From: Clostridiales bacterium
GTDB taxonomy: Bacteria; Bacillota; Clostridia; Lachnospirales; Lachnospiraceae
Assembly (NCBI GenBank): GCA_021204005.1
Contig: JAJQAD010000144.1
Coordinates: forward strand, 1-56,106
DNA: 56,106 nt
Reading direction: 5' to 3'
Shown here: positions 18,831 to 31,632 of the stretch, piece after piece
How the letters are laid out: every line of letters starts with the position of its first letter
How positions within the stretch are numbered: the first letter of the stretch is position 1
Made by a program: the position numbers and the translations under genes
The notes under the pieces: generated by a model
Databases searched by the model: none
Seen by the model: only the letters and a program-made list of their open reading frames with translations
What the model was told of the DNA's origin: nothing

Positions 18831-21291
18831 TATTTTATTTGACAAGGAGCGCTTTAAAGAAGAAGTAAAAGACAATGTCCGGATGCTTTTCCGTAAGAAA
18901 TTATCCGAGGCGACAGACCAGGAGATTTTTCAGGGCGTCTCCTACACGGTAAAAGACGTGATTATCGACCAGTGGCTGGCAACACAGCAGACCTTTGACA
19001 AGGAAGATCCGAAGATGGTCTACTATATGTCCATAGAATTCCTGATGGGACGCGCTCTGGGTAACAACCTGATTAACCTGACCGCTTACAAGCAGGTGCG
19101 GGAGGCTCTTGAGGAGCTGGGCATCAACCTGGACGTCATCGAGGACCAGGAGCCTGATCCGGCACTGGGCAACGGCGGTCTTGGTCGGCTGGCAGCGTGT
19201 TTCATGGATTCGCTGTCTTCTCTGGGCTATGCGGCTTACGGCTGCGGTATCCGCTACCGTTACGGTATGTTTAAGCAGGCGATTGTGAATGGCGCACAGG
19301 TGGAGAAGCCGGACAACTGGTTAAAGAATGGTTATCCCTTTGAACTGCGCCGTCCGGAGCACACGTTTACCGTAAAGTTTGGCGGGTATGTCCGTTCTGA
19401 GGCTCTGCCGAACGGCAACACAAAATACATTCAGGAAAATTATCAGGCAGTGCGCGCGGTGCCTTATGACATGCCCATCGTCGGCTATAAGAATAATGTA
19501 GTCAACACGCTGATGATCTGGGATGCGGAACCAACCAATGAGTTCCAGCTGGATTCCTTTGACAAGGGTGATTACCACAAAGCGGTGGAGCAGGAGAACC
19601 TGGCCCGCAACCTGGTGGAGGTCCTTTATCCGAATGATAACCATATCCAGGGCAAGGAGCTGCGCTTAAAGCAGCAGTATTTCTTCGTTTCCGCTTCTGT
19701 GCAGTGTGCGGTGGCGCGTTATAAGAAGTACCATCCGGACATCAAGAAGATGTACGAGAAAGTAGTTTTCCAGATGAACGACACGCATCCTACCGTTGCG
19801 GTGGCTGAGCTGATGCGTATCCTCATGGATGAGGAGGGACTCGGCTGGGATGAGGCGTGGGATGTCACTACAAAGGTCTGCGCTTACACAAACCATACGA
19901 TCATGTCAGAGGCACTGGAGAAATGGCCGATTGAGATTTTCTCTCGCCTGCTGCCCCGTATTTACCAGATTGTGGAGGAGATCAACCGCCGCTATCTGCT
20001 TCAGATTGATATGAAGTTCCCCGGCGACCAGGCGCGGAAAGACCGGATGGCTATCGTCCACAACGGACAGGTGCGCATGGCATATCTGGCGATCGCGGCA
20101 AGCTTTTCCGTAAACGGTGTGGCACGGCTGCACACGGAGATTCTGAAGAAGCGTGAGTTGAAAGACTTCTACGAGATGTCACCGGAGAAATTCAACAATA
20201 AGACCAACGGTATTACGCAACGGCGTTTCCTTTATCACGGCAATCCGCTGCTGGCAGACTGGGTGACAGATAAGATCGGTTCTGACTGGGTTACCGACTT
20301 AAGCCAGATGAAGAAACTCAGTGTCTATCTTGATGATGAGAAGGCACAGCAGGAGTTTATGAATATCAAGTATAAGAACAAGCTGCGCCTGGCGAAGTAT
20401 ATCCAGGAGCATAACGGGATTGAGGTCGATCCCCGCTCTATCTTTGATGTGCAGGTAAAGCGTCTCCATGAGTATAAGCGTCAGCTGATGAATATCCTTC
20501 ATGTGATGTATCTGTACAACAAGATCAAAGAGCATCCGGAGATGCCTTTCTACCCGCGCACCTTTATTTTCGGCGCAAAAGCGGCGGCTGGTTATGAGAT
20601 TGCAAAGATGACGATCAAGCTGATCAATTCCGTAGCGGATGTGGTCAACAATGATCGCAGCATCAACGGCAAGATCAAAGTCGTCTTCATTGAGGATTAT
20701 AAAGTATCCAACGCGGAGATGATCTTCGCGGCGGCCGATGTTTCTGAGCAGATTTCCACGGCCAGTAAGGAGGCTTCCGGTACCGGCAACATGAAGTTTA
20801 TGCTGAACGGCGCAGTCACCATCGGCACCATGGATGGCGCGAATGTGGAGATGGCTGAGGAACTGGGTGAGGAGAATATTTTCATCTTTGGTATGAGCTC
20901 TGATGAAGTGATGGAGCACGAGCGGCTGCGCGATTACCATCCGATGGATATCTTTAACAGTGACCAGGATATCCATCAGGTCCTGATGCAGCTGATCAAC
21001 GGATTCTATTCTCCGGATCACACAGAGCGGTTCCGGAAGCTGTATAATTCTCTGCTGAACACAGAGAATACCCAGTATGCGGACACCTACTTCTGCCTGA
21101 GAGATTTCCGTTCCTACGCGGAGGCGCAGGAACGCATTGAGGAAGCGTACCGCGATGAGAAGCGGTGGGCGAAGCTGGCGATGACCCAGGTGGCCTGCGT
21201 GGGCAAGTTCTCCTCCGACCGGACGATTCAGGAGTATGTGGATGATATCTGGCATCTGGATAGAATTAAAGTTCAGATGGAAGAGGAGTAG
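18823..21291 (+). CDS. glgP: Glycogen/starch phosphorylase
   Basis: LGNGGLGRLAACF, NDTHP, QVKRLHEYKRQ and PLP motif EASGTGNMKFMLNG; overlaps ileS by 8 bp. Confidence 0.96.
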   Translation: MSNILFDKERFKEEVKDNVRMLFRKKLSEATDQEIFQGVSYTVKDVIIDQWLATQQTFDKEDPKMVYYMSIEFLMGRALGNNLINLTAYKQVREALEELGINLDVIEDQEPDPALGNGGLGRLAACFMDSLSSLGYAAYGCGIRYRYGMFKQAIVNGAQVEKPDNWLKNGYPFELRRPEHTFTVKFGGYVRSEALPNGNTKYIQENYQAVRAVPYDMPIVGYKNNVVNTLMIWDAEPTNEFQLDSFDKGDYHKAVEQENLARNLVEVLYPNDNHIQGKELRLKQQYFFVSASVQCAVARYKKYHPDIKKMYEKVVFQMNDTHPTVAVAELMRILMDEEGLGWDEAWDVTTKVCAYTNHTIMSEALEKWPIEIFSRLLPRIYQIVEEINRRYLLQIDMKFPGDQARKDRMAIVHNGQVRMAYLAIAASFSVNGVARLHTEILKKRELKDFYEMSPEKFNNKTNGITQRRFLYHGNPLLADWVTDKIGSDWVTDLSQMKKLSVYLDDEKAQQEFMNIKYKNKLRLAKYIQEHNGIEVDPRSIFDVQVKRLHEYKRQLMNILHVMYLYNKIKEHPEMPFYPRTFIFGAKAAAGYEIAKMTIKLINSVADVVNNDRSINGKIKVVFIEDYKVSNAEMIFAAADVSEQISTASKEASGTGNMKFMLNGAVTIGTMDGANVEMAEELGEENIFIFGMSSDEVMEHERLRDYHPMDIFNSDQDIHQVLMQLINGFYSPDHTERFRKLYNSLLNTENTQYADTYFCLRDFRSYAEAQERIEEAYRDEKRWAKLAMTQVACVGKFSSDRTIQEYVDDIWHLDRIKVQMEEE

Positions 21292-21365
21292 CGGGAGCGA
21301 AAAAGAAATTAGATTTGATTTAAAATGAAGTAATTTTATTCCGGTTTAGCCGGGGTGGGATGATT

Positions 21366-21390
21366 GGGCGGGAGTGTCTTGCTCCCGCCT
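21366..21390 (+). terminator. GC-rich hairpin after glgP (possible terminator, no clear U-tract)
   Basis: GGGCGGGAG (21366-74) / CTCCCGCCT (21382-90). Confidence 0.5.
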
Positions 21391-21724
21391 GATGAACATA
21401 ACATATCAGGCGTATCAGTTTATTCAATTTATATCATTAGTCATCATCAATATATTTCATCGGTATTAAATTATTTTGCAGTGTTTTATATTCGGTAATA
21501 GGTGGATCTGGAATTCTTATAAAAATTCTTATAGAGATGGAAGCATAGTGGCTTTTGCAATTCGGAAAATTCGGAATTTTCCCTCAGAAGATTCTTATTC
21601 AGAAAGAATTATGAAATATCAATTTTGATTTCCTTGTATAACGCCATAGGCGTAATGTATGGTTGTAGTAGAGTGTAGCGATTAAGGAAACTTTTTGGAT
21701 TTCGCGCAAGAAAGAAGAGAGGTG

Positions 21725-22128
21725 ACTCACAAAAGGAGAGAAAAATCAGATGCAGTGGGTTCGGTTGAGCTGTGAAGTTCCTGTAAGATTAGAAAAACTA
21801 TAAAGTTTGTGGGTAAAGGAAAAGGAGAGTGGTCCGTGAAAGAAGAGAAAATCAGATGCTGTGGGTTCGGTTGAACAATAAAATCCCATAAGATTAGAAA
21901 GATCAGAATGTTTGTGGGTAAAAATAATTGGAAGGAACCCACAAAAGAATATAAAAGCAGAAAAGTGTAGGTTTAAAGAGTGAAAAATAACCCACAAAAT
22001 CATAAAAAATGAAAAAATGTAGGAGTAAAGTATAGGAAATAACCCACAAAATCATAAAATTTGAAAAATAAAGGGATTGCCGGAGAGAATTAACCTACTG
22101 AATTAGATTAATTTTGGCATTAGTGGGT
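21725..22128. repeat. Array A: 8 units of ~52.5 bp, ACCCAC-N23/24-GTGGGT-N17, with variable spacers
   Basis: Right arms start at 21755, 21809, 21861, 21914, 21967, 22019, 22071, 22123; left arms at 21725, 21779, 21832, 21884, 21937, 21990, 22042, 22093. Confidence 0.85.
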
Positions 22129-22273
22129 TACTAAGGAGAAAATCACATAGTGTGGGTGGTAAGATGATTTTACAGTGTAGATGGAATTGTAGCATGGACG
22201 GATTATTAAGGTGGAAATTGTTTTGTGATGAAAACAAAGCATAATTTAATCAGAAGATAAATGGGGGAAGGAT

Positions 22274-23077
22274 ATGGGCAATTTATACAGAGAACTACAA
22301 AAGAAAAAACAGAAATTAGAGATTATAATCAAAGAAGCAGAGGATTATTTACAGGCTGCTCCGGAAGGGCAATTGAGAATCGCCGTAAAAGGAATTCATA
22401 AGCAATATTATTTATGGCGTAGGGAAGAAAAAGAGAGATATCCGAATGGAAAGTATATAAAAAACAGAGAGAAGGAATTGATTGAAAAACTGGCACAGAA
22501 ATCTTATTATCAGAAGATTTTGAAGAAAGCCCGGTACAGACTAAAAAGGATTGACACATTTCTTGATGATTATGAAGAGGATGAGTTGTTGAAAGTATAT
22601 TCACATCTGCACCCGGCACGGAAGGCGTTGATTCAGCCAATTTATCTACCGGATGAATTGTTTGTCCAACGATGGGAGCAGGTTACATATAAGAAAAGAG
22701 AGTTCGCTCCCGGAGATCAGGAAATATATACGGAGAAGGGGGATCGCGTGCTTTCAAAATCTGAAAAAATACTTGCAGATAAATTTTATATGATGGGGAT
22801 TCCGTATCGATATGAATTTCCGCTGGAACTGTCGGGGATTGGTGTAATACATCCTGATTTCATGTTGTTAAATAAAAGAACCAGGAAAGAGTATTATTGG
22901 GAGCATCTGGGGATGATGGATAATCCAGAGTATTGTGTGAATGCTATTCGGCGGATTGAGAATTATGAAAAGAATCATATTTTCCCGGGAGAACAATTGA
23001 TTCTGACCTATGAAACAAAATCGGTTCCCTTAAATATCAAGGTTGTAGAGAGCATCCTGGAGGAATTCCTGTTATGA
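22274..23077 (+). CDS. Uncharacterised protein with a C-terminal PD-(D/E)XK/Vsr-DUF559-like nuclease fold
   Basis: GGGGAAGG SD; N-terminal basic coiled coil; C-terminal SKSEKILAD...GIPYRYE...HPDF...YWEHLGMMD..EY; visibly AT-richer than flanking genes. Confidence 0.7.
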   Translation: MGNLYRELQKKKQKLEIIIKEAEDYLQAAPEGQLRIAVKGIHKQYYLWRREEKERYPNGKYIKNREKELIEKLAQKSYYQKILKKARYRLKRIDTFLDDYEEDELLKVYSHLHPARKALIQPIYLPDELFVQRWEQVTYKKREFAPGDQEIYTEKGDRVLSKSEKILADKFYMMGIPYRYEFPLELSGIGVIHPDFMLLNKRTRKEYYWEHLGMMDNPEYCVNAIRRIENYEKNHIFPGEQLILTYETKSVPLNIKVVESILEEFLL

Positions 23078-23239
23078 TTTTGAAAAAGAAGGTTCCGGTT
23101 ATAAAAAGATGAAAATTTATTCGGGTTTTAGCGAAGCAATTTGGGAAGACGCGGCAAATGCATTGTCCTCTGAATGCGATAAAAAGTAGTGGACAGAGGA
23201 GATGCTCTGAGGTATTTACCCTCTGTGCCTGTCTGTTTC

Positions 23240-23354
23240 CTGCGCTGCCCGTCAACTCCCCGCGTTGCGCTGCCTGTTTATCCTCTGCGCTGCCCGTTAA
23301 CTCCCCGCGTTGCGCTGCCTGTTTATCCTCTGCGCTGCCCGTCAACTCCCCGCG
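23240..23354. repeat. 45-bp tandem repeat (~2.5 copies) just downstream of the CPBP gene
   Basis: CTGCGCTGCCCGTYAACTCCCCGCGTTGCGCTGCCTGTTTATCCT starting at 23240, 23285 and 23330 (partial). Confidence 0.9.
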
Positions 23355-23367
23355 CTGCCTGTCTGTT

Positions 23368-24222
23368 CTATTCTCTGCGCGTCCGCTCTGCCGGTGTGAA
23401 ATCCGTATAAAACAGCCACACCGCGAAGATGGTCAGTGCAAGCCCCGCACCCACGGCGATGTAAAAATTCAGCGCGGTGGTCAGCTCAATCAGTTCGGAG
23501 TACCAGACCCCGATGATATTAAATACAATGTGCACGGGGATGGAATACTTGATTCCGCGTCCCCTGTGGCAGATGAACCCGAGAAACAATCCCATGACAA
23601 AAGCATAGATTCCCTGGATGAAGTTGCCGTGGATCAGACCGAAGAGCAGCGCCTGCCATATGTTGGCTGCCCAGAAGGGAAGCGCGTGTCGGGCATAGCG
23701 GAAGGTGAGTCCGCGGAAAATAAGCTCCTCCACGATGGGAGCCAGGATGACAGAGTAGACGGCCAGCATGGGGGTGACATCGCTGTATCCGGCTGTCTCC
23801 ATCAGGGCATTGTAGGTGTTGAGCCAGTCCGGGCGGAGTGCGGAGGTCACATGGACCACCAGTGTGGTCACGTACTGCAGCCCGATTCCCAGAAACAGAA
23901 TCGCCATGATTGTGTGGAACGAAAACCCGCGCGGATATGCGTTTGATCTCCGGTCACGAAACGGAGAGACAAAGACCCTTCCATACCAGCATCCGAAGAT
24001 GAGAAGCGCCAGGCAGCCGTAAATCAGATTTGAAATCTGGCTGAAAGAAGCATCCGAGGAGGAACTGCTGATCAGATTAAGAATTGTATTCAGATCAAAT
24101 CCGCTTTCGCTGATATTGCGGAGTGCATATACAATCTCCATGGGAATCAGAACAATTACCTGCAGCAAAAGCAGGATCAGACAGGGAATAATACTTTTAA
24201 AAAAACAACCTATTTTACGCAT
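23368..24222 (-). CDS. CPBP (CAAX protease/Abi) family intramembrane metalloprotease
   Basis: EELIFRG, LFGLIH and H..FN motifs; multiple TM helices; ATG 24222 after GAGGAG. Confidence 0.9.
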   Translation of the reverse strand: MRKIGCFFKSIIPCLILLLLQVIVLIPMEIVYALRNISESGFDLNTILNLISSSSSDASFSQISNLIYGCLALLIFGCWYGRVFVSPFRDRRSNAYPRGFSFHTIMAILFLGIGLQYVTTLVVHVTSALRPDWLNTYNALMETAGYSDVTPMLAVYSVILAPIVEELIFRGLTFRYARHALPFWAANIWQALLFGLIHGNFIQGIYAFVMGLFLGFICHRGRGIKYSIPVHIVFNIIGVWYSELIELTTALNFYIAVGAGLALTIFAVWLFYTDFTPAERTRRE

Positions 24223-24290
24223 TAGAAAGCTCCTCGTATAATAGTTGGGGTGAATAGTGACATTGGACAAGTACTTATATTATACACTCA

Positions 24291-24426
24291 ATATATCTAT
24301 GGCCAACGTATATCTATGCTTAATGTATATCTATGGTTAACATATATCTATGGTTAACATATATCTATGGTTAACATATATTTATGGTCAACGTATATTC
24401 ATGGTTAATGTATATCTATAGCCGGC
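24291..24426. repeat. 17-bp tandem repeat x8 in the CPBP promoter region
   Basis: Consensus RTATATCTATGGTTAAC; units start at 24291, 24308, 24325, 24342, 24359, 24376, 24393, 24410. Confidence 0.92.
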
Positions 24427-24716
24427 GCACATGACTATGGTCCTGGCTAGAAAAGTATATCACAGCAGGCGGCGCTGCACAATCAGTACAATTCTTAAAA
24501 TTGTATTCAGAAATCTGAAACATTTTGGAATGTTTTGATGTTTATATGTATTAGCATATGTAAGGTGCGAAAACAACGATGACACTTCAGAGTACTGTTT
24601 TTTGATGGGAATCACTGAAATGAGGTTTTCGGGAAGTGTACGTTGGGACAAGGGAGAAGAGTGCACGGATGCATCAGCGAATCAGAAGGATTGCGATGAA
24701 TATGTGCATGGGAAAA

Positions 24717-24962
24717 GCCTACAAAATTGAATGATTAAAAAAAAGTGGGTTAAAAATGGAGTAAGCAACCTACTAGATTAGAAAAAATCAGAAATCAGTG
24801 GGATGATGTAAAGAAAATAAACCCATAAAACCAGGATTAATGCTAAATTAGGGGGTTGCCATGGCAAATTTTTACCCATACAATTAAGGTGTTTAAAATT
24901 TTTGTGGGACTGACATATAAAAAACAACCTACTATTTCTATATATTCCGGAATAATGTGGGC
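24717..24962. repeat. Array B: 5 units of 53 bp, ACCYAY-N24-GTGGGN-N17 (same family as array A)
   Basis: Right arms at 24745, 24798, 24851, 24904, 24957 (exact 53-bp steps); left arms at 24717, 24768, 24821, 24874, 24927. Confidence 0.85.
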
Positions 24963-31270: not shown

Positions 31271-31632
31271 TATACGGATGAAAACATCTTACCAGGCAAA
31301 ATTGTCAGCATGTATATAAAAATATACGGACGAAAAAACAAGAATAGTGAATTAAATCCGTATGAAATGTAAAAGCATACGGACGAGAAAGTAAGAATAG
31401 TGAATCTGGTCCATATGGAATGTAAAAGCATACGGACGAAAAAAGCAGGAATAGTGAATTTGGTCTGTATGGAGTGTAAAAATATACGGACGAAAAAGCA
31501 GAAATAGTGAATTTGGTCTGTATGGAGTGTAAAAGCATACGGACGAAAAAAGCAGGAATAATGAATTCAGTCCGTATAGAGTGTAAAAAGCATACGGACG
31601 AATTTATCGAGAGGACAGGATTGGTACGTATG
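31271..31632. repeat. Array C: 7 units of 52-55 bp, CATACGGAC-N~24-GTCCGTATG-N~11
   Basis: ATACGGA at 31272, 31324, 31377, 31430, 31484, 31537, 31592; inverted TCCGTAT variants at 31305, 31357, 31410, 31464, 31517, 31571, 31625. Confidence 0.92.

What the first reader, a model, noticed from the sequence alone, without database searches (positions are those of the whole stretch)
21725..24962. Candidate new system: 53-bp dual-arm variable-spacer arrays bracketing an orphan PD-(D/E)XK-like nuclease
Seen in sequence: array A (8 units) ends about 145 bp upstream of the AT-rich 267-aa gene at 22274. Array B (5 units) lies about 1.6 kb downstream, beyond the CPBP gene. Both follow ACCCAC-N24-GTGGGT-N17. 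The spacers differ between units (AAAAGGAGAGAAAAATCAGATGCA, AAAAGAATATAAAAGCAGAAAAGT, TGAATTAGATTAATTTTGGCATTA), yet arm identity and spacer lengths are held to within about 1-2 nt. Ordinary VNTR decay would not be expected to preserve only the arms and the spacing. A ~330-bp AT-rich ORF-free stretch precedes array A like a leader. Inference: the neighbouring nuclease-fold protein binds, processes or propagates the arrays. They could be a transcribed source of ~53-nt small RNAs (a two-repeat, two-spacer layout loosely like TIGR, with different size, motifs and protein), a phased DNA-binding platform, or the cis part of a selfish element. There are no cas genes, Nop-domain gene or integrase in the window.
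Basis: partly seen in the sequence, partly recalled or inferred. Interest (0 to 1): 0.88.

Follow-up and report, generated by a model that had tools for sequence, protein, structure and literature searches.

The report
Helix-phased DNA repeats with matching nuclease
A large unnamed family of nuclease-like genes in gut bacteria sits just behind tandem DNA repeats spaced in whole turns of the double helix, each gene version with its own short repeat motif that is often also scattered through the genome, which points to a likely selfish system in which the protein is predicted to clamp double-stranded DNA as a dimer and would spread its own binding sites.

Summary
Arrays A and B are two of about 22 ACCCAC-N24-GTGGGT arrays in this genome; a second class (ACGGAC-N24-GTCCGT, 17 arrays) has the same geometry. 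All those scored are intergenic. Homologues carry a tandem array directly upstream (51 of 73, then 32 of 47; controls 2-4 of about 60). The roughly 36-bp inverted-arm cassette recurs, the arm sequence differs per gene, and 75 of 78 periods lie within 2 bp of a multiple of 10.5 bp (best fit 10.58). The arm tracks the protein's N-terminal beta-sheet: an N-terminal swap between near relatives comes with an arm switch, and residue 37 covaries with arm base 3 (Ser to G in 11 of 13). The C-terminal domain is restriction-endonuclease-like with conserved acidic residues, and a homodimer model passes its controls. Arrays are gained, lost and replaced at gene junctions, with no target duplication seen. 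Best reading: a RAYT/REP-like nuclease-repeat system that works on phased double-stranded DNA. An RNA-guide reading is not supported, and 'bracketing' and 'leader' are not conserved. Binding, cutting and spreading are inferred, not shown.

The parts
21725..22128 (+). Array A: 8 phased cassettes ACCCAC-N23/24-GTGGGT with 16-18-bp linkers (period 52-54); purine-rich strand is the gene's sense strand; the cognate upstream array
   Evidence: upstream position conserved in the family
22274..23077 (+). 267-aa protein: helix 2-28, beta-sheet 33-62, helix 67-99, restriction-endonuclease-like domain about 150-265 (E164, D195, E210-H211-x-G213)
   Evidence: homodimer model
22370..22459 (+). Coding stretch of the beta-sheet (residues 33-62), the inferred arm-reading module; residue 37 covaries with arm bases 3-4
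24715..24962 (+). Array B: 5 cassettes of the same class, period 53; a dispersed copy, absent at the orthologous position in L001 and L002
31326..31629 (+). Array C: second class, ACGGAC-N24-GTCCGT, period 53, between two sugar-metabolism genes; the cognate paralogue is not in this 93%-complete assembly
   Evidence: class lies upstream of paralogues L072 and L039
21390..21724 (.). AT-rich ORF-free stretch (32% GC); probable promoter region but not a conserved leader

Best explanation
The gene and the arrays form a linked nuclease-repeat pair in which the protein is predicted to bind its own arrays as double-stranded DNA and likely spreads them by nicking or cutting there. Shown: gene-array linkage, a recurring cassette of about 36 bp with two inverted 6-bp arms 30 bp apart, periods at multiples of 10.5 bp, gene-specific arms dispersed through the host genome, arm-to-beta-sheet covariation, and gain, loss and class replacement of arrays at gene junctions. 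Predicted: an elongated homodimer joined through its long helices, with a beta-sheet at each tip reading one arm (residue 37 facing bases 3-4) and a nuclease domain beside it. Inferred: neighbouring dimers must lie on one face of the helix, which fixes the linker at 17 + n x 10.5 bp; nicks or cuts at cassettes are repaired by recombination with other arrays, which amplifies units in tandem and copies arrays to new intergenic sites without a target duplication; the upstream array represses the gene and is exchanged together with the 5' coding end when specificity changes.
For: Linkage: 51 of 73 upstream flanks periodic against 10 of 75 downstream and 3/58, 4/63, 3/56, 2/59 distal; second set 32 of 47, one locus counted twice; strict dyad test 59 of 120 against 1 of 67. 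Phasing: 75 of 78 within 2 bp of n x 10.5 (38% expected), best fit 10.58. dsDNA readout: both arms tolerate the same substitutions; C.A mismatches 37 against G.U 17 and 11 against 13. Specificity: the window protein is 92-94% identical to L001, L002 and P0002 in residues 121-267 but 50% in 31-66, and 75% there to L003, which has the same arm. G011 has 16 sites of the other class and 3 of this one; G000 has 1 and 20. Residue 37 ranks 2nd and 1st of 236 columns for arm bases 3 and 4: Ser to G 11/13, Ala to C 4/4, Ile/Val to A 6/7; partial Mantel 0.18, 0 of 999 permutations; independent pairs 5 concordant, 0 discordant, 2 not contrasting. Host-specific dispersal in 3 of 4 patterns tested (17, 34 and 13 sites against at most 2, 5 and 1 in 14 other genomes). 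Mobility: of 11 orthologous junctions aligned, 7 empty, 2 remnant, 2 other class; one empty state shared by three more genomes; a distant array 76-80% identical over about 500 nt to the gene's own array. Enzyme: E164 and D195 in 112 of 113, E210 in 113 of 113; TnsA, Bax1 and I-Bth0305I at Z 8.4. Dimer: score 0.63, best control 0.00; mark reached by 20 of 30 solved pairs and 1 of 23 single chains; runs agree in at least 94% of contacts; pLDDT 89.
Against: No binding, cutting or movement was measured. In this genome spacers of different arrays are barely more alike than shuffles (0.38 against 0.33; 0.35 against 0.29), and likewise in G049, so recent copying is not visible there. In G042 one array multiplied inside an unrelated inverted-repeat module, so passive carriage occurs. 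In G044 the array is found only at the gene. The commonest class in this assembly has no cognate gene in it. With a 1.5-bp tolerance the second set gives only 16 of 32. Several families have asymmetric arms (L001, L019, L034). The residue-37 rule missed 4 of 13 held-out loci with 3 more ambiguous, and 17 of 59 loci were dropped for lack of a register. The N-terminal swap and the upstream array are physically linked, so local covariation alone could be hitchhiking. The window's own array fails the strict test. Fold matches are middling (no Foldseek E<=0.001 in the PDB) and the canonical lysine is replaced by EHxG.
Confidence: 0.62

Rival explanations
1. Binding platform without self-propagation: the arrays are host-selected or addiction-type sinks that hold a toxic nuclease or repress its gene, and the nuclease acts on phage, incoming DNA or the host when released.
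For: Strong upstream bias. The same nuclease domain ends the candidate defence protein PDC-S68 (E 3.5e-23) and RecD-like helicases. Up to 8 or more diverged paralogues per genome. Ssn modulates transformation (PMC11893778).
Against: Does not explain dozens of dispersed copies that come and go at operon junctions or array-to-array copying. No full-length PADLOC match. No positional bias against background: 22 of 29 co-oriented against 478 of 668.
Confidence: 0.22
2. RNA system: the arrays are transcribed into about 53-nt guide RNAs (TIGR-like) or antitoxin RNAs (type III toxin-antitoxin-like).
For: Tandem array upstream of a nuclease gene, as in type III systems (TenpI 39-57 nt; PMC3401426). 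Purine-rich strand equals the sense strand in 19 of 22. Array A folds better than shuffles (z -4.8).
Against: Periods follow the DNA helical repeat. Spacers match nothing in the own genome, phages or plasmids above chance and arise by local duplication. Arm changes break pairing on the sense strand. No terminator between array and gene. No Rfam, Nop or ToxN-type match. The purine bias equals background (415 of 478).
Confidence: 0.07
3. The protein recognises extruded single-stranded or cruciform hairpins, as RAYT and Ssn do.
For: Inverted arms; the architecture parallels REPIN-RAYT and NTS-Ssn.
Against: Only 6-7 pairable bases around a 24-nt unpaired spacer; fixed 30-bp arm distance and helical phasing are not needed for hairpins; mismatching substitutions are common.
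Confidence: 0.07
4. Ordinary intergenic tandem repeats lying next to an unrelated gene.
For: Other VNTRs flank the gene (45-bp and 17-bp); units do duplicate locally.
Against: 59 of 120 against 1 of 67; quantised periods; arm-residue covariation.
Confidence: 0.02

Closest known systems
REPIN-RAYT (PMC3116915 and 10.1101/2021.07.10.451892; passages read)
   Same: Each nuclease gene has its own repeat class beside it and dispersed copies elsewhere; paralogues in a genome are distinct; inverted doublets; tandem clusters; absent from plasmids and phages searched.
   Different: Restriction-endonuclease-like fold, not an HUH tyrosine transposase; 6-bp non-palindromic arms with an unpaired 24-bp spacer, not hairpin REPs; period fixed in helical turns; the gene itself occupies different sites among relatives.
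Ssn GIY-YIG nucleases with NTS/SRM repeats (PMC11893778; abstract and sections 7, 12 read)
   Same: Repeat-flanked nuclease gene, many dispersed copies, co-evolving enzyme-repeat pairs.
   Different: Ssn is a small single-domain monomer that cuts hairpin ssDNA; this protein has a separate predicted reading module, is predicted to dimerise, and its sites look like phased dsDNA.
BOX elements and ISStso1 of Streptococcus pneumoniae (PMC3184786; passages read)
   Same: Dispersed tandem modular intergenic repeats in Bacillota thought to be moved by a separate enzyme.
   Different: No conserved terminal modules here; no match to that transposase family in Pfam or NCBIfam.
Type III toxin-antitoxin systems (PMC3401426; passages read)
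   Same: Tandem repeats of 31-62 nt upstream of a nuclease gene; present in Lachnospiraceae.
   Different: No terminator before the gene, no toxin-family match, dispersed gene-less arrays, helical phasing.
TIGR-Tas (PMC12045711; passages read)
   Same: Two alternating short repeats with two spacers beside a gene; locus-specific repeats.
   Different: No Nop domain, no box C/D motifs, unit 42-115 bp in 10.5-bp steps, spacers without targets, chromosomal not viral.
TnsA, Bax1 and I-Bth0305I nuclease domains; C-terminal nuclease of RecD-like helicases and PDC-S68
   Same: Fold and acidic residues of residues 150-265.
   Different: Stand-alone gene with a helical-hairpin and beta-sheet N-terminus and cognate arrays; no TnsB or helicase partner.

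Membership tests
REPIN-RAYT | HUH/Y1 tyrosine transposase (RAYT) | tested here: not met
   No Pfam or NCBIfam Y1 match; the model has a restriction-endonuclease-like domain
REPIN-RAYT | 20-60-bp palindromic REPs forming hairpin doublets | tested here: not met
   Complementarity confined to 6-7 arm bases, spacer unpaired
REPIN-RAYT | Cognate repeat next to the gene and dispersed in intergenic DNA | tested here: met
   one exception
Ssn-NTS/SRM | Single-domain GIY-YIG nuclease | tested here: not met
Ssn-NTS/SRM | Sequence-specific ssDNA cleavage | not testable with these tools
   needs an assay
TIGR-Tas | Nop-domain protein | tested here: not met
   No Pfam Nop match in 113 homologues; C-terminal domain matches nucleases
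TIGR-Tas | Arrays processed into 36-nt guide RNAs | not testable with these tools
   no expression data could be examined
TIGR-Tas / CRISPR | Spacers that match foreign or self targets | tested here: not met
   short AT-rich spacers limit the power
Type III toxin-antitoxin | ToxN/CptN/TenpN toxin | tested here: not met
Type III toxin-antitoxin | Terminator between array and toxin gene | tested here: not met
   0 terminator-like sites in 21280-22290
PD-(D/E)XK superfamily | Alpha/beta restriction-endonuclease core with conserved acidic residues | tested here: met
   Z 8.4 to TnsA (115 aligned, rmsd 3.3), Bax1 (99, 3.0), I-Bth0305I (90, 3.0); E164, D195, E210 conserved
PD-(D/E)XK superfamily | Canonical lysine of (D/E)XK | tested here: not met
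   E210-H211-x-G213 in 113 of 113; lysine-free variants such as Vsr-like enzymes are known (recalled)
MITE / classical IS | Conserved terminal inverted repeats and target-site duplication | tested here: inconclusive
   None seen at 7 empty sites, but genomes differ by 6-10%, which could erode short duplications

The most novel reading that the evidence does not exclude
A new class of self-propagating element: a dimeric 'molecular-ruler' nuclease that reads two 6-bp arms three helical turns apart through a small swappable beta-sheet with a simple residue-to-base code, builds and copies helically phased arrays of its own sites without transposon ends, and remodels operon junctions; dozens of natural orthogonal specificities, up to 8 or more per genome.
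Probability: 0.45. Interest if true: 0.92.

Novelty: new variant of a known kind. Interest (0 to 1): 0.82.

Why it matters
It would be a third, independently evolved nuclease-repeat partnership beside RAYT-REP and Ssn-NTS, and the first that appears to work on phased double-stranded sites. It accounts for a common unannotated repeat and a large unnamed gene family (3,279 clusters; 24 of 50 genomes of this family) in gut and rumen bacteria. Because each gene carries its own site list upstream, the protein-DNA code and the long-open question of how bacterial intergenic repeats spread become directly testable. A 267-aa enzyme reading 12 or more bases over 36 bp through a swappable hairpin could be a compact rare-cutter or binding scaffold.

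Tried and rejected
Family libraries: no significant Pfam, NCBIfam or PHROG family; no solved relative by sequence; PADLOC matches only the nuclease domain; DUF6788 is a lead only. Rfam: one sub-threshold snoRNA hit. No RNA or DNA run was listed for the region; this is a blank, not evidence. Viral contigs: no homologue; 13 pattern matches, none in a phased array. Plasmids: only helicase-fused domains. Spacer targets: none above shuffles. Single-sequence fold of the nuclease domain failed (pLDDT 47) and was not used; the N-terminal sheet was not folded alone, so no structural family is claimed for it; the viral fold search gave only generic nuclease hits. Promoter scan at chance level (5 against 3.7). 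The first arm-extraction script gave a mixed picture and one script failed. Literature searches that found no description of this system; the library lacks most subscription papers and supplements were not read. Nine of the 20 regions fetched were not aligned.
Full report
OBSERVATION. Both arrays are there. Array A (21725-22128) has 8 cassettes with inner spacer 23-24 and linker 16-18 and ends 145 bp before the 267-aa ORF (22274-23077). Array B (24715-24962) has 5 cassettes and lies beyond the CPBP/Rce1-like gene. Thirteen of 16 arms in A and 9 of 10 in B are within 2 mismatches of consensus; the rest are decayed and were placed by phase. Units duplicate locally (105-bp and 52-bp periods at about 80%).

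THE ARRAYS ARE A GENOME-WIDE FAMILY. In the own assembly (2.62 Mb, 93% complete) arm pairs peak only at spacer 23-24. A phased-unit scan gave 21 ACCCAC arrays on 20 contigs (array B was missed by its threshold) and 17 ACGGAC-N24-GTCCGT arrays on 17 contigs, with steps of 52-54 or multiples. Wrong-spacer controls gave 0, 0, 5 and 0 phased pairs. All lie between genes by a simple ORF caller, with no orientation bias against background; 38 arrays compare with 668 gaps of 150 bp or more. Some arrays at contig ends may be halves of one array. Between consecutive units arms differ at 0.14 and 0.05 per base against 0.40 and 0.38 elsewhere; this is partly circular because units were picked by their arms. 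Only one gene copy is in the assembly.

THE GENE FAMILY CARRIES ARRAYS. Of 80 homologous loci, 51 of 73 with enough flank have a periodic stretch in the 800 bp upstream, against 10 of 75 downstream and 3/58, 4/63, 3/56 and 2/59 in distal, mostly coding windows. A second set gave 32 of 47 upstream (one locus counted twice) and 8 of 47 downstream. A strict test for three or more phased dyads sharing one arm gave 59 of 120 against 1 of 67; the window's own decayed array does not pass it. The family is in 33 of 301 genomes of the order, 24 of 50 of the own family and 8 of 20 of one other family, with up to 8 scored paralogues per genome; paralogues in one genome have different arms. No homologue was found in viral contigs and only helicase-fused domains on plasmids.

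GEOMETRY. Across the family the cassette is about 36 bp (6 + 23-25 + 6, often starting AC or GC) and the linker changes: periods 52-54, 61-65, 73-77, 83-85, with single cases near 42, 94 and 113-115. Seventy-five of 78 lie within 2 bp of a multiple of 10.5 (38% expected) and the best zero-phase fit is 10.58 bp in both sets. At 1.5-bp tolerance the counts are 44 of 47 and 16 of 32. Loci are related and period follows clades, so the effective sample is about seven classes. A step equal to the B-DNA repeat (established knowledge) means every arm lies on one face of the helix. Both arms tolerate the same substitutions, and single changes that break a sense-strand hairpin are as common or commoner than G.U (37 against 17; 11 against 13). 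Some families have two unlike arms.

THE PROTEIN. AlphaFold2 (pLDDT 91.5) gives helix 2-28, a beta-sheet at 33-62, helix 67-99 and an alpha/beta domain at 150-265. That domain resembles Bax1, TnsA and I-Bth0305I (best Foldseek E 0.0016; Z 8.4), the C-terminus of PDC-S68 and of RecD-like helicases. E164 and D195 are kept in 112 of 113 homologues, E210-H211-x-G213 in all 113; the canonical lysine is missing. A two-copy model scored 0.63 against 0.00 for the best of 3 controls (mark reached by 20 of 30 solved pairs and 1 of 23 single chains; contacts agree at 94% or more; pLDDT 89). It supports a dimer and does not show one. Its self-contacts 7-7 and 96-96 put the dyad at the far end of the long helices from the sheet. 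At 1.5 A per residue (recalled) the two sheets would be roughly 90-100 A apart, close to 30 bp; this is my estimate from the contact list, not a measured distance. Sheet residues 34, 36 and 38 are in the interface, which would leave 35, 37 and 39 free for DNA.

SPECIFICITY. At the same chromosomal site (glgP 97%, dnaE 98% identical) a near relative has a 79% identical protein and an ACCCGAG-type 52-bp array. The window protein is 92-94% identical to L001, L002 and P0002 in residues 121-267 but 50% in 31-66, where it is 75% identical to the more distant L003, which shares its arm. Genome-wide counts follow: G000 20 ACCCAC and 1 ACCCGAG; G011 3 and 16; G003 8 and 3. Among 40 non-redundant loci with a readable register (17 of 59 dropped, 4 near-duplicates removed, 2 added by hand), residue 37 ranks 2nd and 1st of 236 columns for arm bases 3 and 4: Ser to G 11/13, Ala to C 4/4, Ile/Val to A 6/7. 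I saw this residue by eye before the scan. Independent pairs on a tree of the nuclease half: 5 concordant, 0 discordant, 2 not contrasting. Held-out or re-read loci: 9 fit (one a near-duplicate), 4 do not, 3 ambiguous. In a cross test over 15 genomes, three arm pairs were dispersed only in their own host (17, 34, 13 sites) and one was found only at its gene. In the genus, all 5 genomes with 18 or more exact pairs have the gene; the 16 without a match have 0-7.

DYNAMICS. Against genomes 90-94% identical, 11 orthologous junctions were aligned (of 20 fetched): 7 are empty, 2 hold a remnant, 2 hold an array of another class. Two empty sites are tight operon junctions into which 360-615 bp with array and unrelated flanks appear to have been placed; one empty state is shared by three further genomes, which favours gain. 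No target duplication was seen. Other arrays are shared. Array B is absent in L001 and L002; the chance that one of 20 arrays lies within 2 kb of the gene is about 3%, so local spread is possible. The gene itself is absent from this junction in G008 and replaced by another passenger in G023. In G045 a distant array is 76-80% identical over about 500 nt to the gene's array with no shared flank, which is direct evidence of copying. Against this, spacers of different arrays in G000 and G049 are near composition level, and in G042 an array travelled inside another inverted-repeat module.

MECHANISM AND RIVALS. I put binding of cognate dsDNA cassettes by the beta-sheet at about 0.9 and the full model, with nuclease-driven spread by recombinational repair, at about 0.62. 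A sink, autoregulation or defence role without self-propagation is the main rival (0.22) and can coexist with it. RNA guides or antitoxins (0.07) are disfavoured by the phasing, by spacers with no targets, by no terminator and no Rfam family; array A does fold better than shuffles (z -4.8), as inverted arms would. Expression was not examined.

COMPARISON. The logic is that of REPIN-RAYT (PMC3116915; 10.1101/2021.07.10.451892; passages) and Ssn-NTS (PMC11893778; abstract, sections 7 and 12), with BOX-ISStso1 (PMC3184786; passages) as a looser parallel. It fails the defining enzyme and repeat-structure tests of each, and those of TIGR-Tas (PMC12045711; passages) and type III toxin-antitoxin systems (PMC3401426; passages). 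Nine literature searches found no description; the library is incomplete and supplements were not read. Earlier scan notes describe analogous GxxExxY nuclease-repeat units, unchecked here; none matched this protein.

VERDICT. Real, family-wide and apparently undescribed: a nuclease-repeat system of known broad kind with a different enzyme, a helical-phasing rule and a visible recognition code. Interest 0.82.

Noticed in passing
window 31326-31629: Second-class 53-bp array (ACGGAC-N24-GTCCGT), the commonest class in this genome; its cognate gene is missing from the assembly; a shorter copy is at the orthologous site in G011.
   Followed up: yes
window 23226-23380 and 24291-24420: A 45-bp GC-rich VNTR behind the gene and a 17-bp AT-rich VNTR in front of the CPBP gene; the latter is absent in L001 and L002.
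   Followed up: partly
L095:5440-5722 and L096:9334-9468: Another dispersed 135-280-bp repeat family with dozens of copies in G003 and G011; MITE-like.
   Followed up: no
L139-L144 (G042): A cognate array embedded in a module bounded by long inverted repeats and present in at least three copies; the module looks like a separate MITE carrying the array.
   Followed up: partly
L089:1450-1860 (G013): The same nuclease domain fused to the end of a 666-codon helicase-like frame; also in plasmid RecD-like helicases and PDC-S68.
   Followed up: partly
L091 (G021): Diverged homologue flanked on both sides by arrays of period 114-115 (11 turns) with several inverted arms per unit.
   Followed up: no
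L001, L019, L027, L031, L032, L034 upstream flanks: Arrays whose two arms are unlike or direct; unexplained for a symmetric homodimer (heterodimers of paralogues are one possibility).
   Followed up: no
L201:450-1530 (G023): The glgP-CPBP junction holds an unrelated, apparently split passenger gene, so the site is an insertion hotspot.
   Followed up: partly
L097 (G000:C181 11179-11479) against L116: The array-bearing insert splits an overlapping stop/start junction and supplies a new stop codon and ribosome-binding site.
   Followed up: partly
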